A stretch of 64,000 nucleotides of DNA from a bacterium (GTDB lineage: Bacteria; Patescibacteriota; Minisyncoccia; Moranbacterales; DUUL01): assembly GCA_018675685.1 (NCBI GenBank), contig JABGXP010000010.1:49427-113426 (forward strand), given 5' to 3'. Of the stretch, positions 21,027 through 50,945 are shown piece by piece. The position numbers and the translations under genes are program-made. Under the pieces are notes generated by a model. The model saw only the letters and a program-made list of their open reading frames with translations. It was not told the origin of the DNA and did no database searches. Position 1 is the first letter of the stretch; every line of letters begins with the position of its first letter.

Positions 21027-21812
21027 ATGTCTGTATCCTATAACATTGTTTTCTTTGCCGCTATAATGGGTATTCTGCCCGTTACTTGGTGGTTTTGGAT
21101 TATCATCAAAGAAAACCATTTTGGGAAAAGTAGTTTTAATTTACTAGTTGAAGTTTTTTTCTGGGGCGTGCTAACAGCCATTCCAGCTAGTATTATTGAA
21201 ATGATTATAGCAGATACAGGTGGCGGTAGTCAGATTGTTACATGGATGCAAAAAATCTGGCTATTTGGTGAAGTACCCTTCAAATTCACAGCGTTTTTAT
21301 CAGCAGGGCTAATTGCTACGATTGAAGAGCTATCGAAATTGATCGGAATCATCATTATCTTAGGAAAGAGGAATTTCAAGAATGTAAATGAAGGTTTGAT
21401 ATTTGGTTTAGTAGTGGGGCTTGCTTTCGCAGTGACTGAGAACGGAGTTTATTTTTCGACAGCTGTTCAGTCCAGGGAAGTAATAGATTTCGGCAGTGTC
21501 ATTGTATTGAGATTTGTTCTTTCGACTTCTGCACATGTTATCTATTCAGGTATAGCAGGGTTATTTTTTGCCAAGGCAATAGCAGCGAAAGGAGTTCAAA
21601 AAGCGCAGTTTTTTCTGTTATCAATTTGCTTTCCAATCTTGACTCACGCAATCTTCAATTTTCTCTTAGGAGGTCCAAGAGGTATTAACAGCGCAATTTT
21701 AGCAATTATTATGAGCATTGGGTTGTTGATGCTATGGAACGAGTACCAAGAAAATATGGGAAAGCATGCATTTAAAAATAAAAAGAAAATCAAAAAAAAT
21801 GCAAAAAAGTAA
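21027..21812 (+). CDS. PrsW-family intramembrane protease
   Basis: Polytopic membrane protein with the EExxK motif (IEELSKL), FAVTEN, and a conserved His (SAHVIYSG). Confidence 0.6.
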   Translation: MSVSYNIVFFAAIMGILPVTWWFWIIIKENHFGKSSFNLLVEVFFWGVLTAIPASIIEMIIADTGGGSQIVTWMQKIWLFGEVPFKFTAFLSAGLIATIEELSKLIGIIIILGKRNFKNVNEGLIFGLVVGLAFAVTENGVYFSTAVQSREVIDFGSVIVLRFVLSTSAHVIYSGIAGLFFAKAIAAKGVQKAQFFLLSICFPILTHAIFNFLLGGPRGINSAILAIIMSIGLLMLWNEYQENMGKHAFKNKKKIKKNAKK

Positions 21813-26863: not shown

Positions 26864-29317
26864 ATGGGCTTCTTTCTTTGGTACTGGACAAAAGGCATAA
26901 AGGGATATTTTGTTGTTTGGAACAACTTCCTTTCTCATTTTTGGAAATTTTTTAGTGTTAAGCATCTTTTTGCTACGCTTTTCTCGGCTTGGAGAAAAGA
27001 TTTAACACCAAAGGATTGGATAGGACTCCATCCTATCTTAGAGGCTCAGCGATTTGTGGTGAACTTGATTTTTAGATTTTTTGGAGCGATCGTTCGTTTC
27101 ATTGTTGCATCATTTGGGATCTTAGTTGTATCTGTGGTATTCATTATCGGATTTTTATTTATGATAGTCTGGGGATTGGCTCCTGTGGTGCTTATTTTTT
27201 CAATTATTGGTATAACGCTAGGAGAAAGATTGTATGGTTTTTCATTGTTTGCGATTATTCTATTTTTCATCGCTGCTATGCTGATGTATTTAGAGGACAA
27301 AAAAATTCCATACAGTGAACTTCCAGTTGAAAAAATGCCAAGATTCGCTTGGTTTAAGAGAATTGCTCAGAGGATTGGGATGGCTCCGAGTGAGTTAACG
27401 GCTGGACTACTAGCTGATAAGGAGAAGTTAACAGATGTCTTGAAGAAGTATGATGTGTCTATTGATGAGTTTAATTTAATTCTAAAATGGGAAATGGATT
27501 TGCAAGTAGCCAAAGAAAAGGAAGGGAAGTTTTGGTTGATGGAGAATTTACGAAAATCAGTTCCAATCGGGAAAGGCTGGGAGTATGGATACACAGTAAC
27601 AATTGACCGTCATGCTCTGGAATTATCTAGCTATGACCCAACCGAATATCGATTAGTGCTACCAATTGGATATGACGAGGAAATTGAAATGTCAAAATTA
27701 GTTTTGGCGAAAGAAGAGCAAAACAATGTTCTTTTGATGGGGGATTCAGGAGTTGGTAAAAAAGCAATCATGCATCATATTGCTAAACAAGTTATGCAAG
27801 GGAAAGCTGGTCAGAATCTTAATGAAAAAAGGTTTATGTTGGTTGACCTCGGTAGCACAATTTCAGCAGTTGTGAATGAAGGTGGGGACCCAGAGCATGC
27901 ACTCCATTCTCTTTTTCAAGAAGCTGCTCTTGCCGGGAATATTATTTTAGCCATTGATGAAATTGGAAAATATCTTGATCCTGGGAAAAAATCTTCTATA
28001 AATGTTGCAGCAGTGATTGATAGATATTTAATGTTGCCGAATTTTCAAGTTATAGCAACGACAACACGGAAGAATTACCATTCTCTTGTTGAAAAACAAG
28101 AAGGAATTATTAAGAATTTTGATATTATTGAAATTGAAGAGCCAAGCGACAATGAAGCTATTAGAATTTTATTGCAAAAGTTTAGTGAACTCGAGCATGA
28201 TCAAGTCATTTTTACTTTTCAGGCTATTCGAGAAATTGTTCGTCGTTCTTCTCAGCTTGGAAAAATAATGCCATTACCAGGAAGAGCGATCGGATTTGCG
28301 AATAATGTACTTTTATATTGGGAAAAGAACCATGCTAATGAAGGAAAGAGAATTGGAGTAGAGGATGTTTTTCGTGTGATGAGTATTAAGACTGGCGTCA
28401 AACATGGTGAGATTTCTGAGGAAGAAAAGGACAAATTAATGAGCATGGAGAAACTTTTACACTCAAGAGTAATTGGTCAAGATGGAGCTGTAACTCAAAT
28501 TGCAAACTCTATTCGTAAAATGCGTGCAGGAATAAGGAATATTAAAAAACCAGTGGGTAGTTTTTTGTTTCTTGGACCAACTGGAGTTGGAAAGACTGAA
28601 ACTGCAAAAGCTCTTGCGGAAGTTCATTTTGGAGATGAAGAAAGAATGATCAGAATAGATATGAGTGAATATAAAACGCAAAATTCAATTGGCAGATTAA
28701 TAGGTTCACCGGCTACTGGAGAAGTAGGAATTTTAACAACAAAAGCAAAGGATTCTCCATTTTCGTTGATTCTCTTAGATGAAATTGAAAAAGCTCATAG
28801 CGATATATTGGACTTATTTTTGCAAGTTTTAGATGAGGGTTATATCACAGATGGTTTTGGTGAGAAAATTAGCTTTCGAGGAAGTATTATAATTGCCACT
28901 TCAAATGCTGGAGCACCACTGATAAAAACATTAGTTGAACAAAAAGTGGAAGCTGAAGAACTCAGAAAAAGACTAGTTGACCATATCGTTAATGAAGGAA
29001 TGTTCAGAGTAGAATTTTTGAATCGTTTCGATGCAGTAGTATTTTTCCGTGCACTGAAAAATGAGCAAATGAAAGAAGTTATTTCATTGATGCTTCAAAA
29101 ATTTGCTGTTCGAGTAGAAAGAGAAAAAAATATTTCAGTAAAATTTGGAGACAAGGTAGTGGAATGTGTGATTGAAAAAGGTTACGATCCGGTGTTTGGA
29201 GCTCGTTCAATTAATCGCTATATTTCTGATAAAATAGAAGATACAATTGCTACAAAGATTATTGCACATGACGTTGAACGGGGTGGAGAAGTCTTGCTAA
29301 CCACTGACGATTTTTAA
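26864..29317 (+). CDS. Membrane-anchored ClpA/ClpB-like double AAA+ ATPase (D1 P-loop degenerate, D2 canonical)
   Basis: About 200 aa with 3-4 TM helices come first. D1 motifs: LLMGDSGVGKKAIMHH (GxxGxGKK: Lys in place of Thr/Ser) and the Walker B-like IILAIDEIGKYL. D2 motifs: FLFLGPTGVGKTETAKALA, LILLDEIEKAH, TSNAG, GARSINRYI. The ClpB_D2-small region is present. Confidence 0.75.
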   Translation: MGFFLWYWTKGIKGYFVVWNNFLSHFWKFFSVKHLFATLFSAWRKDLTPKDWIGLHPILEAQRFVVNLIFRFFGAIVRFIVASFGILVVSVVFIIGFLFMIVWGLAPVVLIFSIIGITLGERLYGFSLFAIILFFIAAMLMYLEDKKIPYSELPVEKMPRFAWFKRIAQRIGMAPSELTAGLLADKEKLTDVLKKYDVSIDEFNLILKWEMDLQVAKEKEGKFWLMENLRKSVPIGKGWEYGYTVTIDRHALELSSYDPTEYRLVLPIGYDEEIEMSKLVLAKEEQNNVLLMGDSGVGKKAIMHHIAKQVMQGKAGQNLNEKRFMLVDLGSTISAVVNEGGDPEHALHSLFQEAALAGNIILAIDEIGKYLDPGKKSSINVAAVIDRYLMLPNFQVIATTTRKNYHSLVEKQEGIIKNFDIIEIEEPSDNEAIRILLQKFSELEHDQVIFTFQAIREIVRRSSQLGKIMPLPGRAIGFANNVLLYWEKNHANEGKRIGVEDVFRVMSIKTGVKHGEISEEEKDKLMSMEKLLHSRVIGQDGAVTQIANSIRKMRAGIRNIKKPVGSFLFLGPTGVGKTETAKALAEVHFGDEERMIRIDMSEYKTQNSIGRLIGSPATGEVGILTTKAKDSPFSLILLDEIEKAHSDILDLFLQVLDEGYITDGFGEKISFRGSIIIATSNAGAPLIKTLVEQKVEAEELRKRLVDHIVNEGMFRVEFLNRFDAVVFFRALKNEQMKEVISLMLQKFAVRVEREKNISVKFGDKVVECVIEKGYDPVFGARSINRYISDKIEDTIATKIIAHDVERGGEVLLTTDDF

Positions 29318-35262: not shown

Positions 35263-38001
35263 ATGATCTATTCGATCGCTGTACGGCCTAAAGAAAAAAA
35301 TGGGTCGGTTATCAAGGTCTATTATCTGGAAATTTCTAAGGAAAATCCGGACATTGATCTTCTGGCTAACACTTTGTTCCATAATCCGTTGACTGAGGAG
35401 CTGGTACCGGAACTGCCACAAGAAAACATCACAATTGTGATGCGCAACAATGCAGTTTTGGATTCTGCTCAGAAGTCAATCATCGACGGTTGTCGAAGGC
35501 TCGGTGTGGAAGTGGAAGCAGCCAAAGTAGCTCATTGCTACATTGGCGAAGTACCCGCTTCAGTTTTTATTAACCCTTTGATTCATGTGAAATATCATGA
35601 AGTGCCTCAACTGGAAACCCTGAAACCACGCGGTTCCAAGGTTCCCATGGAAGTTGTTGATTTGCGTGAGTATGACGATAAAGGACTTATGCAGATGAGC
35701 GAAGATCGGGATTTGAGTCTATCTTTGAAACAGATGAGAGAGTTGGTTTTGATTCAGATGGATTTGGAACAAGGCCCGGTTTCAGATGTATTCCTGGATA
35801 TTTTCGCGGCCCGCTGGTCAGATCACTGTTGTCACACTACTTGGCTATCCTGTGGATTGCTAAATATGCTCAAGAGAGCAACTGAAGTCATTGCCAATCC
35901 CAATCTCGTATCAGCCTATTATGATAATGCTGGTGGTTGGGCTTTCTATGACAATCTAGTGCTCTGTATTTCAATCGAAACTCATAACAGTCCGACAGGA
36001 AAAGAACCTTATGGCGGACAAATCACTAAACTACTCGGGAATATCCGTGATATTTTCGAATTTGCCTTAGGTGCCAAGCCGATTGGCTCCCTGGAATTGA
36101 CAGTTCTGGGTGAATTAGCCCGGAAAAAATTTCCTGAAATTGCTGGATTCACTCTTGATGCTGATATTGTTGCAAGGGAAACTATTCGGGCTATTGCTGA
36201 TGCCGGAGACCCCATGGGGATTCCGATGATGCTGGCCTCGATGGATTCCCATCCTGGTTATTCCGGAAAACCCTTCGCTTTGGGCGGAAATGTCGGAATT
36301 ACAAGGAAGGAAGTGGCTCAAAAAGGAGTTCCAAGAATTGGCGATTGGGCTGTAGTCCTTAACTGGACTGGTAATGATGGCTATCACGGTGCGACAGTTA
36401 GTTCTGGTGGTTTAACCGAAAAGACTGACACTGGCGATGCCAACCATGTTCAGATGGGGGATACCTTTCCACAACAGAAGTTGATGAGAGCTCGACTGGA
36501 ACTTCGTGATAATGACTGTTTGAGTGCCGGGAATGATTTCGGTGCCGCCGGATTTACTTCCTTTATGGAAATAGCCGAAGCCACTAAGCGTGGAGTCGGA
36601 TATGCTGGCGGGGTCAAACTGAATTTTGGCTGGGTTCCGACGAAATGTGTCGGTATTCCTGACAAAATTATTGCTGTTGGCGAAAGTCAGGAACGTTTCG
36701 GACACGTTGTGAAACCGGAGAAATTGGAAGAAGCCATGGCCATCTACGAAAAATATGAATTGATGGCGACTGTGGTTGGAATTTTCACTGGTAATAATCG
36801 GGTTCAGATTTTTAATGATCCCGATGCTACTAAACTAACTGTAGAGTCACCATTAACGGGGGTTGTCTCTTTTGACGTCCCCTACGAAATGTTTGATCGT
36901 TGTCCTTTGCCGACTGCTAAGCCGGTAGCTCCTCCGACGCTTTCTCCTCAGATTGTATTTCCTAAAATTGAGAAAAAGAACGTGGAAGAGTTAGCCATTC
37001 AGGTTGTAGGCAGTTTTGCCTTGGCTAATCAAGCTTGGGCTACCACCCAGTATGATTCAACAGTTCAGGGTATTACTAAACAAGGTCCGTTATACGGGAA
37101 GAATTACAATATCCCGAGTTCCTTGGCAGTACTTAAGCCAGTTGAAGATAAGAACTGGGGTGTGACTTTCAGTTCCAGTTTTGCTCCTTGGCAGTTTGAT
37201 GTTGATCCTGTTGCGGCAGCTTTCAATGCCGTAGCAGACGCTGTAATAAAACAGATTGTGGCCGGTGTAAGCATGGAAGACATTTGTCTGGCCGATAATT
37301 TTTACACCCCAGATAAAGACCCTTATGCTTTATGGTATCTATGTGAGCAGGTTAAACTGCTAGCAGAAACATCCGTTGCATTTGGGGCTCCCTTTATTAC
37401 CGGTAAGGATAGTTCTCATGGCTCAGGTGAATATAATGGCACCATTGTCAATGTTCCTCCTGGGGTCTGTGTCTCAGCGCTAGGGAAGGTTCCTGATTTT
37501 CATAAAATCACACCTCATCTCTGGAGCTCTCCTGGTAACAAATTGTATTCCATTGGTTATCAAACTAAAACCCTTAAGGGTTCGATTCTGGCTTCTGAGC
37601 TAGACTTGATCGAACGAGATCAGATTGACACTATGACAATTGGTCAGGGGGCTCGATTTTTGAAAGAGCTCGAAGTTTTTACGCAGGCTGGGCATTTTGC
37701 TTCAGCTGTGCCGGTTAACCGTGGTGGTTTGATCCAGAAATTGTTTGAAGGAGTCCAAGCTTCCGGATTTGGTGTGAAAACCGATCTAGTGGAAGAACTT
37801 TTTCCGGAAAGCTTTGGTTCAGTGCTGGTGGAAGTTTCACCCAAGATTTCAGGATTAGTGGAAGGTTATTTCAACGGCGAAATAGAATTGGTCGGTGAAA
37901 TTACCGCTACACCTGAAATAGCAGTGCAAGGAACAAACCTTGATATGAATAAACTCTTCAATGCCTGGAATAGTGGCTTTACAAGAAAGGTGGTGGTTTA
38001 A
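35263..38001 (+). CDS. purL: Phosphoribosylformylglycinamidine synthase PurL with an N-terminal PurS-like extension
   Basis: ETHNSPTGKEPYGGQITKLLGNIRDIFEFALGAKPIG matches the PurL ETHNHP...EPY..A.TG.GG.IRD pattern. Two PurM-like halves. 912 aa. Strong SD AAGGAGG. Confidence 0.85.
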   Translation: MIYSIAVRPKEKNGSVIKVYYLEISKENPDIDLLANTLFHNPLTEELVPELPQENITIVMRNNAVLDSAQKSIIDGCRRLGVEVEAAKVAHCYIGEVPASVFINPLIHVKYHEVPQLETLKPRGSKVPMEVVDLREYDDKGLMQMSEDRDLSLSLKQMRELVLIQMDLEQGPVSDVFLDIFAARWSDHCCHTTWLSCGLLNMLKRATEVIANPNLVSAYYDNAGGWAFYDNLVLCISIETHNSPTGKEPYGGQITKLLGNIRDIFEFALGAKPIGSLELTVLGELARKKFPEIAGFTLDADIVARETIRAIADAGDPMGIPMMLASMDSHPGYSGKPFALGGNVGITRKEVAQKGVPRIGDWAVVLNWTGNDGYHGATVSSGGLTEKTDTGDANHVQMGDTFPQQKLMRARLELRDNDCLSAGNDFGAAGFTSFMEIAEATKRGVGYAGGVKLNFGWVPTKCVGIPDKIIAVGESQERFGHVVKPEKLEEAMAIYEKYELMATVVGIFTGNNRVQIFNDPDATKLTVESPLTGVVSFDVPYEMFDRCPLPTAKPVAPPTLSPQIVFPKIEKKNVEELAIQVVGSFALANQAWATTQYDSTVQGITKQGPLYGKNYNIPSSLAVLKPVEDKNWGVTFSSSFAPWQFDVDPVAAAFNAVADAVIKQIVAGVSMEDICLADNFYTPDKDPYALWYLCEQVKLLAETSVAFGAPFITGKDSSHGSGEYNGTIVNVPPGVCVSALGKVPDFHKITPHLWSSPGNKLYSIGYQTKTLKGSILASELDLIERDQIDTMTIGQGARFLKELEVFTQAGHFASAVPVNRGGLIQKLFEGVQASGFGVKTDLVEELFPESFGSVLVEVSPKISGLVEGYFNGEIELVGEITATPEIAVQGTNLDMNKLFNAWNSGFTRKVVV

Positions 38002-44696: not shown

Positions 44697-45359
44697 TTAG
44701 TCACAGCAGACGCGATTACGTCCACATTTTTTTGCTTTGTACAAATTTTCATCTGCTTCACTCATAAGGGCAGGTAGCGACTGCTCTTTATCGCGCAGAG
44801 TCGCCACACCTAAACTCAGAGTTAAAATTTCGGAAGCATCAGAATTGGAATGGGGAATTTCAAGTTTTTCAATGGCTAAGCGAGCTCTTTCTGCCATAAC
44901 TTGAGCACCTGCTTCATCAGTGTTGGCAAGAATAAAGACAAATTCCTCCCCTCCATATCTTGATAAGGAGTCAGCAGGACGATGCAAGGTGTCTTTGAGC
45001 GCCATCGCAACATTTTCGAGCGCCTCATCTCCTTTTTGATGTCCGTAAAGATCGTTATATTTCTTAAAATAATCAATATCGATCATTACAATAGACAGGG
45101 GTTCATTCCGCCGTAAAGATTCACGGAATTCTCGTTTTGACTCTTGATCAAAGAATCTCCTATTTGAAACACCCGTTAGTCCATCAATCGTTACGAGAGA
45201 CTCAAGTCTTTTGTTTTCCTCCTCTAGCTGGATTATATAGGCCAGTGATCCATCTAACCGCTTTTCTGTCTTGGCTAGTTTTTTTGCAAAGGATTTAATG
45301 ATCTTTCGCAATTTCTCTACTAATAAGTCGACATGTGGTAATCTTGACTCCTTTGCCAT
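44697..45359 (-). CDS. Diguanylate cyclase (GGDEF domain) with N-terminal coiled coil
   Basis: GLTGVSNRRFFD, the GGEEF active site (RYGGEEFVFIL), and an I-site-like RPAD motif. SD AAGGAG. GC-richer than background. Confidence 0.9.
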   Translation of the reverse strand: MAKESRLPHVDLLVEKLRKIIKSFAKKLAKTEKRLDGSLAYIIQLEEENKRLESLVTIDGLTGVSNRRFFDQESKREFRESLRRNEPLSIVMIDIDYFKKYNDLYGHQKGDEALENVAMALKDTLHRPADSLSRYGGEEFVFILANTDEAGAQVMAERARLAIEKLEIPHSNSDASEILTLSLGVATLRDKEQSLPALMSEADENLYKAKKCGRNRVCCD

Positions 45360-45569: not shown

Positions 45570-46556
45570 TTGATGAAAATGAAAAGACTGGTATGGATTA
45601 TTGTATTTATTTTGATTGGATGGCTGATTTGGAATGGATCAGTGGCTTTATTTAATGAAAAACGTAAAATTTCTTTTTTTGGAGAAAAACTAATTACTGT
45701 GAATGATGATGGTTTGGTTTACCAAATTTTGTCTGATGCTAAAAATATCGCTGAATTTGAAAAAAAACATAAACTTAGATCGAGCGAAAACGATTTAATT
45801 TACCCAAATAAAAGCGAGAGACTCTTGCCAGGTATGATTGTGGAAGTTTGGCGCAATAGAAAAGTGAAAATTGAGGTTGACGGAAAAGAGATTGAAAAAA
45901 ACACTTTTGCTAAAACTGTCGAGGAAGCTCTTGCTGATGCAGACATCTTTGTGGGACGTTTGGATGTAGTAGAGCCATCTAAGTTGGAAACAATAGATAA
46001 CAGTAAGGAGATCGTTGTGACTAGAATTAATGTTGAAAACATAACCATTGCAAAAAAAGTTGACTTTGAAACAATTGAAAAGAATGACAAAAAACTGCAA
46101 TGGATGAAAAATAAAATTGAACAAGCGGGCGAAAAAGGTGAGAGAGTTGTTGAATATCAAGTAACCTATAAAAACGGTAAGGAGGTTTCAAGGAAAACTC
46201 TTTCCTCTGAAATTACAAAAAAACCAGTAACTGAAATTGTTAGAATTGGAACAAAGATCAACTTTGGAAAATCTCACACTGGATGGGGAACATGGTATGA
46301 CCAGGGACCCCATCCGAAACTTAGAGCAAGATATCCATTTAAAGGAGATATGTTTGCTGCAAGCCCTTGGTTGCCGCTTGGGAGTTATGCTAAGATCACG
46401 AACAAAGCCAATGGAAAGGCTATTATTGTTAGGATAAATGACCGTGGACCCTTTGGAGAAAATAGAATCATTGATCTACATAAACCTGCATTTACGGCAA
46501 TAGCCTCCCTGGGAGCAGGAGTACTAGAAGTAAAAGTGGAAGAAATTTTGCAATAA
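45570..46556 (+). CDS. RlpA-like lytic transglycosylase family protein (TM + G5-like + DPBB domain)
   Basis: C-terminal GWGTWYDQGP...AIIVRINDRGPFGENRIIDLHKPAF is the RlpA double-psi beta-barrel signature. A middle G5-like beta domain. Confidence 0.7.
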   Translation: MMKMKRLVWIIVFILIGWLIWNGSVALFNEKRKISFFGEKLITVNDDGLVYQILSDAKNIAEFEKKHKLRSSENDLIYPNKSERLLPGMIVEVWRNRKVKIEVDGKEIEKNTFAKTVEEALADADIFVGRLDVVEPSKLETIDNSKEIVVTRINVENITIAKKVDFETIEKNDKKLQWMKNKIEQAGEKGERVVEYQVTYKNGKEVSRKTLSSEITKKPVTEIVRIGTKINFGKSHTGWGTWYDQGPHPKLRARYPFKGDMFAASPWLPLGSYAKITNKANGKAIIVRINDRGPFGENRIIDLHKPAFTAIASLGAGVLEVKVEEILQ

Positions 46557-47633: not shown

Positions 47634-50600
47634 ATGAGCGAAGAAGAAAAACAAAAACAAAATGAAGAAAACTCTGATGATGCTCAAAAGGCTAGTCAGA
47701 CAAATGTGAATGACGACGAAGAAAGAGTTGTGTACGAAGAAGATGAATCGCCGGAAGAAAAAGAGCGCCGTCATCTTGAGGCACGAGACAAGAGGCGAGC
47801 AGAAAGAAAAGCCTTAGAAGAAAAGGAGAAAAGGGATGTAAAGGAAAGAAAGAAGAAGAAAAAGGAAGAAATGAACTTTGCTAGAAAAGGGAAGGTTCAA
47901 AAAACCCTAACACACTTGAAAAAGGGTTCCGAGGAAGAAGAGGCTTCAAAACTGGCAAACACACTTCATATCCCGTATCTTGATCTTAATATTTTTCCGA
48001 TTGACCAGGAAAATGTTAAATTTATAGAAGAGGATATTGCGAAAGAGTTAGGAATAGCAGTTGTTCATAAACTAGAAAGATCAATAAAGTTAGTCACGAC
48101 AAACCCTGAAGAGGGAAAAGTCAGGGATTTCATCGCAGAACTAGAAGATGATGGGATGAAAGTCGAACTTTTTATAGTTTCGCAATCATCCATAGAGAGA
48201 GCCTGGGACGAGTATGGAAAGGAAAACTTAGTAGAAATCCTAGATACATTACGAGCGGGGTTAACAGGTGAAGAGTTAGCAGCTTTCGAAAATGATACGA
48301 AAGGTGTTTTGGATATGGATACAAAAATTCGTGACCTTCCAGTAACAAAAGTCTTGAACATGGTTCTGGCTGGAGCTATTAAGTTAGAATCATCGGATAT
48401 TCATTTCGAGCCACAACAAACAAGTAAGGTCCGTTTGAGATTTCGTATAGACGGTGTATTGCAAACAGTAGCATCTTTCCCTGTTCATATATATCCAACG
48501 GTTGTTGCTAGAGTGAAGGTGCTTGGAAAAATGATGATTAATGTGCGAGATATTGCACAAGACGGTCGTTTTTCTGTTGAAAGAGAGGGTCAAGCCCCAA
48601 TGGATTTGCGTGTTTCGATTCTACCAGGTAATTTTGGTGAAAATATTGTGGTTCGTTTGCTTAGTCAAAACATCGATGACTTGTCTTTAGATAAAATGGG
48701 ATTAGAAGGGCTGAATTACGAATGGCTTATTAATGAATCTGAAAAAAAACAGGGTGCTATTATTAATTCTGGACCAACAGGAAGCGGAAAAACAACAACA
48801 TTATATGCGCTTATTAATCGTTTAAATTCCGTTGACAAGAAAATCATTAGTATCGAAAACCCGATTGAATATCAAGTCCCTGGTGTTAGTCAAACCCAAA
48901 TTGAAGAAAGAAAGGGATACACATTTGAAAGTGGCCTGCGGGCAATTATGCGTCAGGACCCAGACATTATCTTGGTCGGTGAGATTCGGGATGAAGCTAC
49001 TGCAGAGATAGCCATTCATGCCTCATTGACTGGTCATCTTGTGCTTTCAACAACTCATGCAAATAGTGCGACGGGGGTGATTGGACGTTTCGTTGATCTT
49101 GGAATTAAACCAAACTTAATAGCCCCTGCAATCAATGCTTTTGTTGCACAACGTCTTCTGAGACGTCTATGCCCACATTGCAAAGAGGAATACAAACCAG
49201 CAAGTGAGACAATTGATATGATTAAGAAAATGTTGGCGCTTATTTCTCCTAAGGCTGATATTTCCATACCTAAGCATATTGAAAAACTTTGGAGACCAAA
49301 GGGTTGTCATAAATGTCATGGACTTGGGTATAAAGGAAGAGTGGGAATTTTTGAGATCCTTGTTATTTCAGAAGAAATCAAAGATGAAATCGAGAGAATG
49401 TCGCCAGAGGATGAAATTAGGAGTGTGGCATTGGAAAATGGAATGATTACTTTGGAGCAGGACGGAATTTTAAAATCTGTTATTGGTACTACCTCAATCG
49501 AGGAATTGCAAAGAGTCGTTGGAAAGGGTGAATACTTGATTGATTTATATGAAAAAATAGTTGTACAATCTTTGGCACGTGGAATTTTTGTTAAAGATGA
49601 AGTTTTGCAGGCTGTTGATAAAATCAGGGATGATTATGAGGCATTCGAAGAACTGTATCGGAAACTTCCGCCAAAGGAATTAATCAAATACATTCTAATT
49701 GGAGCAATATACACAGGAACTGGAGACATTCATATTGAACCAGGGATGAAGCAATTTAAGATTCGATATCGAATTGACGGTGCTTTGCATGATATCGCAC
49801 TTTTGGCAATGAATGATTATTTGACTGTCTTAAATGAGATTAAGAATTTAATGGGAGTTAAAACCGGAAAGCGAGAAGGAGTGATTGATGGGAGATTTAA
49901 AATTATGTATACCAATAAAGACAAGGAGTCAGGAGAGGAGAGTATTGACGTTCGTGTTTCTATTATACTTGGTGGCTTTGGCGATGTAATCGTGATGAGA
50001 CTTTTAAGTCAAAGCGTCCAAGTTGCTAGCTTGGAAAAGTTAAATATAAATGAGTATAATCTTGAGAAAATAAAGAGAAATGTTGCCCGTCCCAATGGGA
50101 TTATTATGGATACAGGACCGACTGGGAGTGGAAAAACTACTACATTGTACAGTCTTTTGAATTATCTTAAGGACCCTAAATTAAAATTAATCACAATTGA
50201 AGATCCAATTGAATATCAAATGGAAGGAGTTTTGCAAACTCAAGTAAAAGAGGAAGAAGATTATACCTTCACGACAGCGATGAGGGTTATTTTACGACAA
50301 GACCCTGATATTGTAATGGTTGGAGAAATAAGAGACTCAGAGAGCGCCAATGCTGCCTATAGAGTAGCTTTAACAGGGCATTTAATCCTAACCACACTAC
50401 ATGCAAACAGTGCAGCAGGAGCTGTGCAAAGACTTTTGAATATGGGTATATCGATGTCGGATCTATCAACTGGTACGAATTGTTTTATTGCACAACGTTT
50501 AGTCAGAGTACTTTGTCCTCATTGCAAAAAAGAAAAAACAGTTGATTCGGAAGAAAAAAAGATAATTGAAAAAGTTTTAAAGGGTGTTTCTCCGAAAGTG

Positions 50601-50945
50601 ACCCTAGATATTCCTGAAAAAGTTGAAAAAATTTGGGAAGCAGTTGGTTGTGAAGAATGCCATAACATTGGTTTCAAGGGAAGAGTTGCAATTACGGAGG
50701 TCTTGGAGATTGATAGAGTAATGCAAAAATTTCTAACCATGAATCCAATCACAGTTGAAATTAGAGAGAAGGCGATTGAAGAGGGAATGTTGACGATGGG
50801 ACAAGAAGGAATCTTGCGTGTTGTAAGAGGGGAAACAACAATCGAAGAGATTTCCCATGTAATTAAAGAGATAGATTTTGTCAAAGTTGAAAAACAAATT
50901 GAGTTAAAGGAAGAAGAATCCGCAACCGAAGAGGTTGTGGTGTGA
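47634..50945 (+). CDS. Tandem-fused double PilB/GspE-family secretion ATPase (two complete ATPase modules in one 1103-aa polypeptide)
   Basis: Module 1: GspE N-terminal domain, Walker A SGPTGSGKTTTLYAL, Asp box DPDIILVGEIRD, His box LTGHLVLSTTHANSA, tetra-Cys CPHCKEE...CHKCHGLGYKGR. Module 2: TGPTGSGKTTTLYSL, DPDIVMVGEIRD, LTGHLILTTLHANSA, CPHCKKE...CEECHNIGFKGR. A ~90-aa charged low-complexity N-terminus. Confidence 0.85.
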   Translation: MSEEEKQKQNEENSDDAQKASQTNVNDDEERVVYEEDESPEEKERRHLEARDKRRAERKALEEKEKRDVKERKKKKKEEMNFARKGKVQKTLTHLKKGSEEEEASKLANTLHIPYLDLNIFPIDQENVKFIEEDIAKELGIAVVHKLERSIKLVTTNPEEGKVRDFIAELEDDGMKVELFIVSQSSIERAWDEYGKENLVEILDTLRAGLTGEELAAFENDTKGVLDMDTKIRDLPVTKVLNMVLAGAIKLESSDIHFEPQQTSKVRLRFRIDGVLQTVASFPVHIYPTVVARVKVLGKMMINVRDIAQDGRFSVEREGQAPMDLRVSILPGNFGENIVVRLLSQNIDDLSLDKMGLEGLNYEWLINESEKKQGAIINSGPTGSGKTTTLYALINRLNSVDKKIISIENPIEYQVPGVSQTQIEERKGYTFESGLRAIMRQDPDIILVGEIRDEATAEIAIHASLTGHLVLSTTHANSATGVIGRFVDLGIKPNLIAPAINAFVAQRLLRRLCPHCKEEYKPASETIDMIKKMLALISPKADISIPKHIEKLWRPKGCHKCHGLGYKGRVGIFEILVISEEIKDEIERMSPEDEIRSVALENGMITLEQDGILKSVIGTTSIEELQRVVGKGEYLIDLYEKIVVQSLARGIFVKDEVLQAVDKIRDDYEAFEELYRKLPPKELIKYILIGAIYTGTGDIHIEPGMKQFKIRYRIDGALHDIALLAMNDYLTVLNEIKNLMGVKTGKREGVIDGRFKIMYTNKDKESGEESIDVRVSIILGGFGDVIVMRLLSQSVQVASLEKLNINEYNLEKIKRNVARPNGIIMDTGPTGSGKTTTLYSLLNYLKDPKLKLITIEDPIEYQMEGVLQTQVKEEEDYTFTTAMRVILRQDPDIVMVGEIRDSESANAAYRVALTGHLILTTLHANSAAGAVQRLLNMGISMSDLSTGTNCFIAQRLVRVLCPHCKKEKTVDSEEKKIIEKVLKGVSPKVTLDIPEKVEKIWEAVGCEECHNIGFKGRVAITEVLEIDRVMQKFLTMNPITVEIREKAIEEGMLTMGQEGILRVVRGETTIEEISHVIKEIDFVKVEKQIELKEEESATEEVVV

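What the first reader, a model, noticed from the sequence alone, without database searches (positions are those of the whole stretch)
26864..29317. Membrane-anchored ClpA/ClpB-like double AAA+ protein with a degenerate first P-loop (GDSGVGKK)
The 817-aa protein begins with ~200 aa containing 3-4 TM helices instead of a soluble Clp N-domain. Two AAA+ modules follow. D1 has GDSGVGKKAIMHH, where the canonical P-loop Thr/Ser is Lys, though a DE-containing Walker B (AIDEIG) is retained. D2 is fully canonical (GPTGVGKTETAKALA, LLDEIEKAH, GARSINRYI) and has the ClpB-D2-small region. I see no coiled-coil M-domain and no obvious ClpP-docking IGF/IGL loop. A membrane-tethered unfoldase or disaggregase with a probably non-hydrolysing D1 is unusual. 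The only familiar membrane-anchored AAA+ unfoldase is FtsH, which has a single AAA module.
Basis: seen in the sequence. Interest (0 to 1): 0.5.

Follow-up and report, generated by a model that had tools for sequence, protein, structure and literature searches.

The report
Membrane-anchored Clp-like ATPase lacking pore tyrosines
This gene encodes a relative of the Clp/Hsp100 protein-unfolding motors that is built into the cell membrane, has one dead and one live ATPase ring and has lost the "gripping" tyrosines of both rings; it belongs to an undescribed family common in the tiny Patescibacteria, so it probably does something other than classical protein unfolding.

Summary
The 817-aa ORF at 26864-29317 (+) is real and intact, and an identical protein is encoded on many independent contigs. 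Two things were missed. (1) D2 is not fully canonical. Its catalytic motifs are intact, but the GYVG pore loop is deleted. D1 also lacks its KYRG pore loop and both arginine fingers. All this holds in 30/30 membrane-anchored relatives, while soluble ClpA/B/C controls keep every element, including a canonical paralogue next door in one Patescibacteria locus. (2) The anchor is not generic. Residues 1-121 are a conserved module with no Pfam or NCBIfam match. In other Patescibacteria it is a separate ~128-aa gene lying 3-6 bp upstream of, or overlapping, a TM-anchored Clp-like ATPase gene (5 of 6 loci; one gene intervenes in the sixth). The window protein is therefore a gene fusion of that pair. 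Best reading: a D2-driven, non-proteolytic Hsp100 derivative that is independent of ClpP and lacks ClpB's M-domain, acts at the membrane with its small partner, and probably does not thread substrates. Substrate and membrane topology are unresolved. I found no literature on the family. It is a new variant of a known kind.

The parts
26864..29317 (+). Complete ORF, 817 aa plus stop: membrane-anchored Hsp100/Clp-like double AAA+ protein
26864..27226 (+). aa 1-121: conserved small-membrane-protein module. It comprises an aromatic-rich helix 2-29, the TLFSAWRKD motif at 38-46, the N67/R71/G74/R78 helix, and a hydrophobic helix with W103..P107. It is homologous to stand-alone ~128-aa proteins of other Patescibacteria.
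   Evidence: module profile hits window aa 3-115, E 1e-30; no Pfam or NCBIfam family
27227..27301 (+). aa 122-146: short polar turn (within GERLYG, aa 120-125) plus one further hydrophobic helix (123/124-146) that is absent from the stand-alone module
27302..27658 (+). aa 147-265: helical linker between the membrane region and D1. No Clp_N domain is detectable. It ends in the conserved W-x-YGYT-x-x-D pre-D1 motif (aa 239-248), which corresponds to TPxLD of ClpC.
27659..28333 (+). aa 266-490: D1, an AAA+ fold with degenerate catalytic and pore elements. Walker A GDSGVGKK (27740-27778); pore-loop position NEGGDPEH (within 27854-27901); Walker B IILAIDEIG (27941-27967); sensor-1 QVIATTT (28046-28066); Arg-finger position IKNF (within 28103-28123).
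28334..29053 (+). aa 491-730: D2, a catalytically complete AAA+ module. Walker A 28574-28618; Walker B 28766-28798; sensor-1 28886-28915; Arg finger 29012-29032. Its primary pore loop is shortened and has no aromatic residue (RLIGSPATGEVGILT, 28694-28738). It has no ClpP-docking tripeptide (28916-28969).
29054..29314 (+). aa 731-817: ClpB_D2-small lid domain with sensor-2 GARSINRYI (29198-29224)

Best explanation
The gene encodes a Patescibacteria-specific paralogue of the Hsp100/Clp ATPases that is permanently integrated in the cytoplasmic membrane. Shown: (i) Residues 1-121 are a conserved small-membrane-protein module. In other Patescibacteria this module is a separate ~128-aa gene immediately upstream of, and apparently co-transcribed with, a TM-anchored Clp-like ATPase gene; here the two are fused. 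(ii) D1 keeps the AAA+ fold but has lost the Walker A Thr, both arginine fingers and the pore-loop tyrosine. (iii) D2 keeps Walker A, Walker B, sensor-1, the Arg finger and sensor-2, but has lost the GYVG pore loop. (iv) There is no M-domain, no ClpP-docking loop and no detectable Clp_N domain. Inferred: D1 is a non-hydrolysing ring that scaffolds the hexamer and links it to the membrane part, and D2 is the only motor. The membrane region sits on the D1 (entry) face. The machine cannot feed ClpP and lacks the M-domain, which in ClpB is the Hsp70/DnaK docking site. Because neither ring has a substrate-gripping aromatic residue, it most likely does not thread polypeptides processively. Instead, the D2 ATP cycle is probably used to remodel or actuate a membrane-embedded partner or complex formed with the small-protein module. 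That would be a non-threading mode analogous to Torsin with its TM cofactor, or to Bcs1. The physiological target is unknown; recurrent peptidoglycan and morphogenesis neighbours make cell-envelope assembly the leading guess.
For: The ORF is intact and the identical protein recurs on many contigs. Motif table: all 30 membrane-anchored relatives lack D1 KYRG, the D1 ERRF arginines and D2 GYVG. 29 of 30 have K, R or Q in place of the Walker A Thr. All 30 keep every D2 catalytic motif. Soluble ClpA/B/C controls in the same alignment keep everything (residue-level alignment to B. subtilis ClpC). Of 49 diverse full-length representatives (50%-identity clusters), none has a canonical GYVG in the D2 pore-loop segment where that segment could be located (46 of 49). 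The ClpP tripeptide [ILVM]G[FLM] is found in 0/29 and 0/40 family members against 10/14 controls. The whole-protein AlphaFold model (pLDDT 83) superposes on ClpC, ClpB and ClpA protomers at TM ~0.8 over ~580 columns, so D1 is still folded as an AAA+ module. The module occurs as many stand-alone 126-135-aa proteins. In 6 of 6 loci examined, the stand-alone gene precedes a TM-anchored Clp-like ATPase gene, with spacings of 3, 6, 3, -4 and -4 bp and one locus with a gene in between. Intermediate-length hits checked were mostly truncated copies of the same architecture. A fully canonical Hsp100 (GKT, KFRG, DE, ERRF, GYIG, IGF, long M-domain) sits next to the membrane-anchored paralogue in L019, so the degeneracy is specific to the paralogue. 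Envelope genes lie nearby: MurI/MurD, MreB/MreC, PBP and amidase, PBP, LytR-CpsA-Psr. The Torsin precedent for a Clp-like AAA+ at a membrane without aromatic pore loops is in PMC5425593.
Against: There are no experimental data for any family member. Loss of the aromatic pore residue argues against threading but does not prove it; the window protein still has Val-Gly (GEVG) at the loop tip, although relatives have QPG, SPG or ETG. In this protein D1 keeps the Walker A Lys and a DE Walker B, so it may still bind nucleotide and could have residual or regulatory activity; one ~79%-identical relative (P0008) even has GKT. The envelope link rests on gene neighbourhood in small genomes where such genes are common, and it is not conserved across all loci. 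Membrane topology is unresolved: window-type and P0023-type fusions differ by one hydrophobic helix, so the module could even be monotopic. Hexamer formation and the module-ATPase contact are inferred, not modelled.
Confidence: 0.55

Rival explanations
1. It is a classical membrane-tethered unfoldase, disaggregase or dislocase. It would extract or unfold membrane or aggregated proteins by threading them through the axial pore, like FtsH without the protease or like Msp1.
For: It has the Hsp100 double-ring fold with a fully competent D2 ATPase. The membrane anchor is on the N-terminal (entry) side, as in FtsH and Msp1. The window protein's D2 loop tip still reads Val-Gly.
Against: Aromatic pore-loop residues are absent from both rings in 30/30 relatives, and 46 further representatives lack a canonical GYVG. 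The residues replacing them are not conserved as hydrophobic (QPG, SPG, ETG, ENG). There is no M-domain for Hsp70 coupling and no ClpP loop. A canonical Hsp100 coexists in at least one such genome.
Confidence: 0.2
2. It is a ClpC/ClpA-type regulatory subunit of the ClpP protease, as automatic annotations state ('ATP-dependent Clp protease ATP-binding subunit ClpC').
For: Source names given. The best PDB sequence and fold matches are ClpC.
Against: No [ILVM]G[FLM] docking tripeptide in 0/69 family members, against 10/14 controls. The loop region is shortened. NCBIfam ClpA and ClpB scores are about one third of the family cutoffs. No Clp_N domain for adaptors.
Confidence: 0.03
3. It is a decaying or non-functional gene, or an artefactual fusion of two genes caused by a sequencing error or frameshift.
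For: D1 motifs are degenerate. In other lineages the N-terminal module really is a separate gene.
Against: The identical 817-aa protein occurs on many independent contigs. Fused full-length homologues go down to ~25-40% identity and form 48 clusters of 761-900 aa among the top 150 representatives. D2 motifs and module residues are invariant. Homologues confirm the N-terminal start MGFF/MNFF.
Confidence: 0.02
4. It is an anti-phage defence or other accessory ATPase (for example Dodola DolB-like or PDC-M37-like), with the small membrane protein as effector.
For: PADLOC hits to PDC-M37B and DolB over the D2 region (E 1e-36 to 1e-32). The layout of a two-gene cassette with a small TM protein resembles some defence systems.
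Against: The PADLOC scores (~110-125 bits) are far below the ClpB score (409 bits) and cover only the generic D2 fold. The small module has no PADLOC hit. The gene is widespread among Parcubacteria-group Patescibacteria and sits among housekeeping genes (serS, dus, pth, murD, mreB), not in defence islands.
Confidence: 0.03

Closest known systems
ClpC / ClpA (class I Hsp100 unfoldases, ClpP partners)
   Same: Two AAA+ modules in tandem, plus a ClpB_D2-small lid. These are the best sequence and fold matches: B. subtilis and S. aureus ClpC at 30-36% identity, TM ~0.8 over D1+D2. Like ClpA, there is no long M-domain. D2 Walker A, Walker B, sensor-1, Arg finger and sensor-2 are identical in type.
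   Different: A membrane module replaces Clp_N. D1 Walker A is GKK. The D1 arginine fingers and KYRG pore loop are lost. The D2 GYVG loop is deleted. There is no IGF/LGF ClpP loop. NCBIfam scores are far below cutoff.
ClpB / Hsp104 disaggregase
   Same: Highest NCBIfam score (409 bits, D2 region). No ClpP loop. ClpB_D2-small domain present.
   Different: No coiled-coil M-domain, which is the Hsp70 docking site. No pore tyrosines. D1 is inactive, whereas both ClpB rings are active. The protein is membrane-integrated.
Torsin ATPases with LAP1/LULL1 cofactors (eukaryotic ER and nuclear envelope)
   Same: A functional analogy: a Clp/Hsp100-related AAA+ at a membrane that lacks aromatic pore loops and works with a transmembrane partner carrying a degenerate, non-nucleotide-binding AAA+ fold (PMC5425593). 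Here a TM anchor plus a degenerate AAA+ domain (D1) is joined in cis to an active D2.
   Different: Torsins have a single AAA+ module, lack their own arginine finger and sit in the ER lumen. Here D2 has its own Arg finger and sensor-2, and the protein is bacterial and cytoplasmic. No Pfam Torsin hit at E<=0.01. No homology beyond the shared Clp-D2 ancestry is claimed.
FtsH, Msp1/ATAD1, Bcs1 (membrane-anchored AAA+ machines)
   Same: An N-terminal membrane anchor places the ring's entry face toward the bilayer. From general knowledge, Bcs1 also works without canonical aromatic pore loops.
   Different: Those proteins have a single AAA module. FtsH carries a protease domain and an aromatic (FVG) pore loop, and Msp1 has aromatic pore loops. 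They belong to the classical AAA clade, not the Hsp100 clade.
Type II AAA+ proteins with one degenerate ring (NSF D2, PEX1/PEX6 D1)
   Same: One ring serves as a non-hydrolysing assembly scaffold and the other is the motor (general knowledge).
   Different: The family, the substrates and the ring that is inactive all differ, and none of these is an integral membrane protein.

Membership tests
Hsp100/Clp class I (ClpA/ClpB/ClpC) | Two tandem AAA+ modules with the Hsp100-type D2 (AAA_2) and the ClpB_D2-small lid | tested here: met
   Pfam AAA_2 4.6e-45 and ClpB_D2-small 4e-20. The ClpA model aligns 267-812. Fold TM ~0.8 to ClpC, ClpB and ClpA protomers.
Hsp100/Clp class I (ClpA/ClpB/ClpC) | Curated family score thresholds (NCBIfam ClpA, ClpB, ClpV equivalogs) | tested here: not met
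   ClpB 409 vs 1232 bits; ClpA 377 vs 993; ClpV 341 vs 885.
Hsp100/Clp class I (ClpA/ClpB/ClpC) | Catalytically competent D1: Walker A GK[TS], Walker B DE, trans-acting arginine fingers (ERRF) | tested here: not met
   GDSGVGKK in place of GxxGVGKT. IKNF in place of ERRF. DE is present here but is DN, DD, EN or PR in orthologues.
Hsp100/Clp class I (ClpA/ClpB/ClpC) | Aromatic pore loops: D1 K[YF]RG and D2 G[YF][VI]G | tested here: not met
   D1 has NEGGDPEH. D2 has GSPATGEVG with a 4-aa deletion. Absent in 30/30 clade members and present in the soluble ClpA/B/C controls.
Hsp100/Clp class I (ClpA/ClpB/ClpC) | Catalytically competent D2: Walker A, Walker B, sensor-1 Asn, Arg finger, sensor-2 GAR | tested here: met
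   GPTGVGKT, LLDEIEKA, TSNAG, FLNRFD and GARSINR are canonical in 30/30.
Hsp100/Clp class I (ClpA/ClpB/ClpC) | N-terminal Clp_N (Clp repeat) domain | tested here: not met
   No Pfam Clp_N hit. hhalign of the linker against canonical N-domains matches only the pre-D1 TPxLD motif. More distant TM-anchored relatives P0028 and P0029 still carry Clp_N.
ClpB/Hsp104 | Coiled-coil middle (M) domain inserted in the D1 small subdomain | tested here: not met
   ClpC residues ~395-458 have no counterpart: query 478 is followed directly by 485. The D1-D2 junction is ClpA-like.
ClpA/ClpC/ClpX (ClpP partners) | [ILVM]G[FL] ClpP-docking loop in the last AAA+ module | tested here: not met
   0/29 and 0/40 family members against 10/14 controls. 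There is a deletion at the ClpC VGF position.
FtsH | A single AAA module followed by an M41 zinc-protease domain | tested here: not met
   Two AAA+ modules and no peptidase domain in Pfam.
Torsin | A single Clp-D2-like AAA+ module without its own arginine finger; Pfam Torsin family | tested here: not met
   No Torsin hit at E<=0.01. The D2 Arg finger is present. Only the lack of aromatic pore loops and the membrane association are shared.
New family: Patescibacteria membrane-anchored Clp-like ATPase plus small membrane module | N-terminal or adjacent-gene module with W6, F30/S31, T38-L-F, N67, R71, G74, R78, W103, P107 | tested here: met
   Alignments A4 and A5. The profile hits window aa 3-115 at E 1e-30.
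New family: Patescibacteria membrane-anchored Clp-like ATPase plus small membrane module | Hexameric assembly, membrane topology, and physical contact between module and ATPase | not testable with these tools
   No multimer modelling, no TM-topology predictor and no model coordinates were available. The parity of membrane helices is unresolved.

The most novel reading that the evidence does not exclude
The fused protein, and the two-gene cassette elsewhere, is a previously unrecognised type of AAA+ membrane machine specific to Patescibacteria. In this reading, a ring of small-protein modules in the bilayer is mechanically driven by a pore-loop-less Hsp100 D2 ring through a dead D1 ring. It would work as a non-threading actuator, gate or translocase (Torsin/LAP1-like or Bcs1-like) in cell-envelope biogenesis, division or exchange with the host, rather than in protein quality control.
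Probability: 0.3. Interest if true: 0.8.

Novelty: new variant of a known kind. Interest (0 to 1): 0.62.

Why it matters
Hsp100/Clp proteins are textbook threading motors whose action depends on pore-loop tyrosines. Here a large, conserved family keeps an intact D2 ATPase but has discarded the tyrosines of both rings. It has also inactivated D1, dropped the ClpP and Hsp70 interfaces, and become wedded to a dedicated small membrane protein. That implies a different use of the Hsp100 engine. It would give a bacterial, recombinantly tractable counterpart to the poorly understood Torsin-type "pore-loop-less" AAA+ proteins. It also assigns a partner and a context to two abundant groups of Patescibacteria "hypothetical" or mis-annotated "ClpC" proteins. 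These organisms' membrane and envelope biology (lipid scavenging, episymbiosis) is largely unknown. In practical terms, the automatic "ClpC" annotation of these genes is misleading.

Tried and rejected
(1) Clp_N remnant in aa 147-265. The MAFFT alignment suggested it, but hhalign against canonical N-domains matched only the 16-residue pre-D1 motif (probability 15%), and Pfam found nothing. Rejected as unsupported.
(3) Membrane topology. Hydropathy, the positive-inside rule, comparison of fusion types and two AlphaFold runs give inconsistent helix counts of 2, 3 or 4. Left unresolved.
(4) The ~290-aa single-TM neighbour in L016, L018 and L021 as FtsQ. POTRA_1 scored only E=0.23, with nothing in PDB or NCBIfam, and it is absent from the window and the other loci. 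Not claimed.
(5) Promoter and terminator scans around the gene were no better than shuffled sequence.
(6) Defence-system membership. PADLOC hits are generic D2 similarity only.
(7) Literature. Eight full-text searches (Patescibacteria or Parcubacteria with ClpB or ClpC, membrane-anchored Hsp100, pore-loop-less Hsp100, and similar) found no description of this family. The library is incomplete, so absence is not proof.
(8) A genome scan with the broad N-terminal alignment A2 failed for lack of a conserved stretch. The narrower A3 recovered only 9 loci.
(9) One contig look-up duplicated earlier information.
Full report
OBSERVATION. The window (36.6% GC) contains one uninterrupted ORF at 26864-29317 on the + strand: ATG start, 817 codons plus stop. 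The opposite strand is full of stops. The identical 817-aa protein is indexed in 57 blocks of the public collection. 23 contigs were read, including NCBI GCA_018648465.1 and independent ENA, JGI and Logan assemblies, all with the same neighbours. The N-terminal hydrophobic region is therefore not a separate gene joined by a sequencing error in this organism. Homologues begin with the same MGFF/MNFF...WY sequence, which confirms the start codon.

DOMAINS. Pfam finds AAA_2 (aa 562-724, 4.6e-45) and ClpB_D2-small (731-810). Over the first ATPase module it gives only weak generic P-loop hits, and there is no Clp_N and no AAA_lid_9. NCBIfam models for ClpB, ClpA, ClpV, ClpG and ClpK all match, but at about one third of their curated cutoffs. 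The ClpA model aligns end to end with aa 267-812, so the architecture is D1+D2 without a middle domain. An AlphaFold model built on 21 homologues (pLDDT 83, pTM 0.74) superposes on ClpC, ClpB and ClpA protomers from cryo-EM hexamers, with target-normalised TM about 0.8 over about 580 columns. D1 is therefore still a folded AAA+ module.

MOTIFS. I compared residue by residue with B. subtilis ClpC. I also built a motif table over the 45 homologues returned by the first database search. That set contains an internal control group of soluble ClpC-, ClpB- and ClpA-like proteins (P0031-P0042).

In D1 of the window protein:
- Walker A is GDSGVGKK, against GEPGVGKT in ClpC, so the Mg-coordinating Thr is Lys.
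- The pore loop K-Y-R-G-E-F-E is N-E-G-G-D-P-E.
- Walker B is ILAIDEIG, so DE is present.
- Sensor-1 Thr is kept.
- The arginine-finger pair ERRF is IKNF.

Across the 30 membrane-anchored relatives (P0001-P0030):
- 29 have K, R or Q at the Walker A Thr position. The single exception is P0008, which has GKT.
- None has the aromatic D1 pore loop.
- None has the two arginines.
- The Walker B Glu is kept only in the four closest sequences. Orthologues at about 80% identity already read DN or DD, and others read EN, EH, PR or AN.

This relaxed and divergent decay of several independent catalytic elements marks D1 as a pseudo-ATPase. In split-type relatives the D1 P-loop is gone altogether (GQTNEDRL, GPAGESKM).

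D2 is different. Walker A GPTGVGKT, Walker B LLDEIEKA, sensor-1 TSNAG, Arg finger FLNRFD and sensor-2 GAR are canonical in all 30 sequences. The primary D2 pore loop, GAPPGYVGYEEGG in the controls, is GSPATGEVG here. It has a four-residue deletion and no aromatic residue, and the same holds in 30 of 30 relatives, where the tip reads QPG, SPG, ETG or ENG. I then examined 49 diverse full-length representatives from an exhaustive HMMER search. The D2 pore-loop segment could be located in 46 of them, and none has a canonical GYVG there. D1 Walker A, where recognisable, ends in K, R, Q, H, M, S, D, L or occasionally T.

The ClpP-docking tripeptide [ILVM]G[FLM] between D2 sensor-1 and the Arg finger is absent in 0/29 and 0/40 family members. 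It is present in 10/14 controls, and the ClpB-type control correctly lacks it. ClpC residues ~395-458 (the M-domain) have no counterpart.

In locus L019 a fully canonical 875-aa Hsp100 sits next to a membrane-anchored paralogue. The canonical protein has GKT, KFRG, DE, ERRF, GYIG, IGF and a long coiled-coil M-domain. The losses are therefore specific to the paralogue and are not a quirk of the lineage.

THE ANCHOR IS A SPECIFIC MODULE. Hydropathy shows a continuous hydrophobic block at aa 63-146. I searched aa 1-265 against 1.84 billion cluster representatives and found 356 proteins at E<=1e-3. Among the best 150, 48 are proteins of 761-900 aa with the same architecture, and 81 are small proteins. 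Many of the small ones are 126-135 aa long and match query residues 3-117. Of the intermediate-length hits I checked, most proved to be truncated copies of the same fused architecture, and none showed a different domain.

The small proteins align over their whole length with aa 1-121 of the window protein. Invariant or near-invariant positions are W6, F30, S31, L35, T38, F40, N67, R71, G74, R78, W103 and P107. Neither Pfam nor NCBIfam has a model for the module. A profile search found 464 such proteins at 90% clustering. All are named 'hypothetical', and they come from Paceibacterota, Nomurabacteria, Nealsonbacteria, Parcubacteria and similar groups.

I looked up six loci that carry either the small gene or a non-fused TM-anchored ATPase. 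In every one the small gene lies directly upstream of a Clp-like double-AAA+ gene on the same strand. The spacings are 3, 6 and 3 bp or 4-bp overlaps in L016, L018, L019, L020 and L021. In L017 one 381-aa TM/coiled-coil gene lies between them. A profile built from the small proteins hits all of these. The L019 copy is only a weak hit, at E about 1e-3. The profile hits window aa 3-115 at E 1e-30, and it does not hit the split ATPases themselves, which have their own pair of TM helices. The window protein is thus a Rosetta-stone fusion of a conserved two-gene cassette, and the fused form is itself widespread. Close relatives come from Candidatus Moraniibacteriota and other members of the Patescibacteria group.

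WHAT COULD NOT BE SETTLED. The helical linker (aa 147-265) shows no detectable Clp_N similarity. Only the W-x-YGYT-x-x-D motif corresponds to ClpC's TPxLD. The module's predicted structure (pLDDT 88 with a 116-sequence alignment) has helices 2-29, 32-37, a continuous 57-118 and 124-146. It has no specific match among solved structures.

Topology is unresolved. The positive-inside rule places the Lys/Arg-rich head and the ATPase in the cytoplasm, which requires an even number of crossings. AlphaFold's single long helix plus one return helix would give two. However, the invariant W103..P107 looks like a hairpin turn, which would give three. In addition, P0023-type fusions have one hydrophobic helix fewer than the window type, although both must keep the ATPase inside (note).

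Gene context is not conserved at depth. The window gene stands alone between divergent and convergent neighbours: MFS transporter, LytR-CpsA-Psr and Pth upstream, and a beta-helix protein downstream. Peptidoglycan or morphogenesis genes nevertheless recur next to family members: MurI/MurD, MreB/MreC, and PBP and amidase. I treat this as a hint only.

INTERPRETATION. Shown:
- The protein is membrane-integrated and has an Hsp100 fold.
- D1 is degenerate in catalysis and in substrate contact.
- D2 is catalytically complete but has no pore loop.
- There is no M-domain, no ClpP loop and no Clp_N.
- The N-terminus is a fused dedicated membrane partner.

Inferred: D1 acts as a non-hydrolysing scaffold ring, as in other type II AAA+ proteins with one dead ring, and D2 is the sole motor. 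The machine is not a ClpP activator and not a ClpB-type partner of DnaK. Without gripping aromatic residues in either ring it probably does not thread polypeptides. Its ATP cycle would instead act on, or through, the membrane module.

The nearest functional precedent is Torsin. Torsin is a Clp/Hsp100-like AAA+ at a membrane that lacks aromatic pore loops and is partnered with TM cofactors bearing a degenerate AAA+ fold (PMC5425593). Torsins differ in being single-module and in lacking their own arginine finger, so this is an analogy, not membership.

The classical tethered-unfoldase reading remains possible, at about 0.2. The ClpP-partner, pseudogene or artefact, and defence-system readings are each unlikely.

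NOVELTY. Eight full-text searches found no description of a TM-anchored, pore-loop-less Hsp100 or of the small module. Databases call these proteins 'ClpC', 'AAA family ATPase' or 'hypothetical'. I class it as a new variant of a known kind, namely the Hsp100/Clp superfamily. Several family-defining functional features were tested and not met, and it has a previously unrecognised obligate membrane partner.

Noticed in passing
window 47634-50945 (+): A 1103-aa ORF has two separate matches to the T2SSE (GspE/PilB) ATPase family (699 bits in total) plus an MshEN N-domain. It looks like a tandem-duplicated type IV pilus or type II secretion ATPase in one polypeptide.
   Followed up: no
L019 3868-6495 (-) and 6629-9640 (+): In one Patescibacteria contig a fully canonical ClpB/ClpC-type Hsp100 (875 aa, with all motifs, an IGF loop and an M-domain) is encoded divergently, right next to the small-module gene and the membrane-anchored paralogue, which there still carries a Clp_N domain behind two TM helices.
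   Followed up: partly
P0008 (795 aa, ~79% identical to the window protein): This is the only member of the membrane-anchored clade with a canonical D1 Walker A (GEAGVGKT) and DE Walker B. Either it is a reversion or the T->K change is recent and variable in this sub-lineage. It still lacks the Arg fingers and pore loops.
   Followed up: no
L017 6394-7539 (+): In one locus a 381-aa protein with several TM helices and a C-terminal coiled coil is inserted between the small-module gene and the ATPase gene. It may be a third component of the cassette in that lineage.
   Followed up: no
L016 5101-5967, L021 6090-6980, L018 8798-9655: A conserved ~290-aa single-TM protein with C-terminal motif DLRF..KVFY flanks the cassette in three related loci, upstream in two and downstream in one. 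The only hit is a non-significant FtsQ-type POTRA match (E 0.23). It is absent from the window.
   Followed up: partly
L013 and L014 (genome contigs): Two full-length fused homologues (~30% identity in the N-terminal region; L013 is ~48% GC and has MreB/MreC downstream) come from MAGs labelled 'uncultured Bdellovibrionales'. Either the bins are mislabelled or the family extends beyond Patescibacteria.
   Followed up: partly
P0043 (745 aa, 'Spirochaetota bacterium'): A soluble, distant double-AAA+ relative keeps a D1 KYFG pore loop but also lacks the D2 GYVG loop and the D1 arginine fingers. Loss of pore loops in Hsp100-like proteins may occur outside the membrane-anchored clade.
   Followed up: no
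window 44697-45359 (-), 45570-46556 (+), 21027-21812 (+): A stand-alone 220-aa GGDEF diguanylate cyclase, an RpfB-like G5+DPBB lytic transglycosylase and a PrsW-family membrane protease are encoded in this small-genome window.
   Followed up: no
window 35263-38001 (+) and L003: The 912-aa AIRS/AIRS_C (PurL-like) gene is called as 912 aa in two assemblies but as 714 aa in the NCBI record for the same sequence, so the start-site annotation is inconsistent.
   Followed up: no
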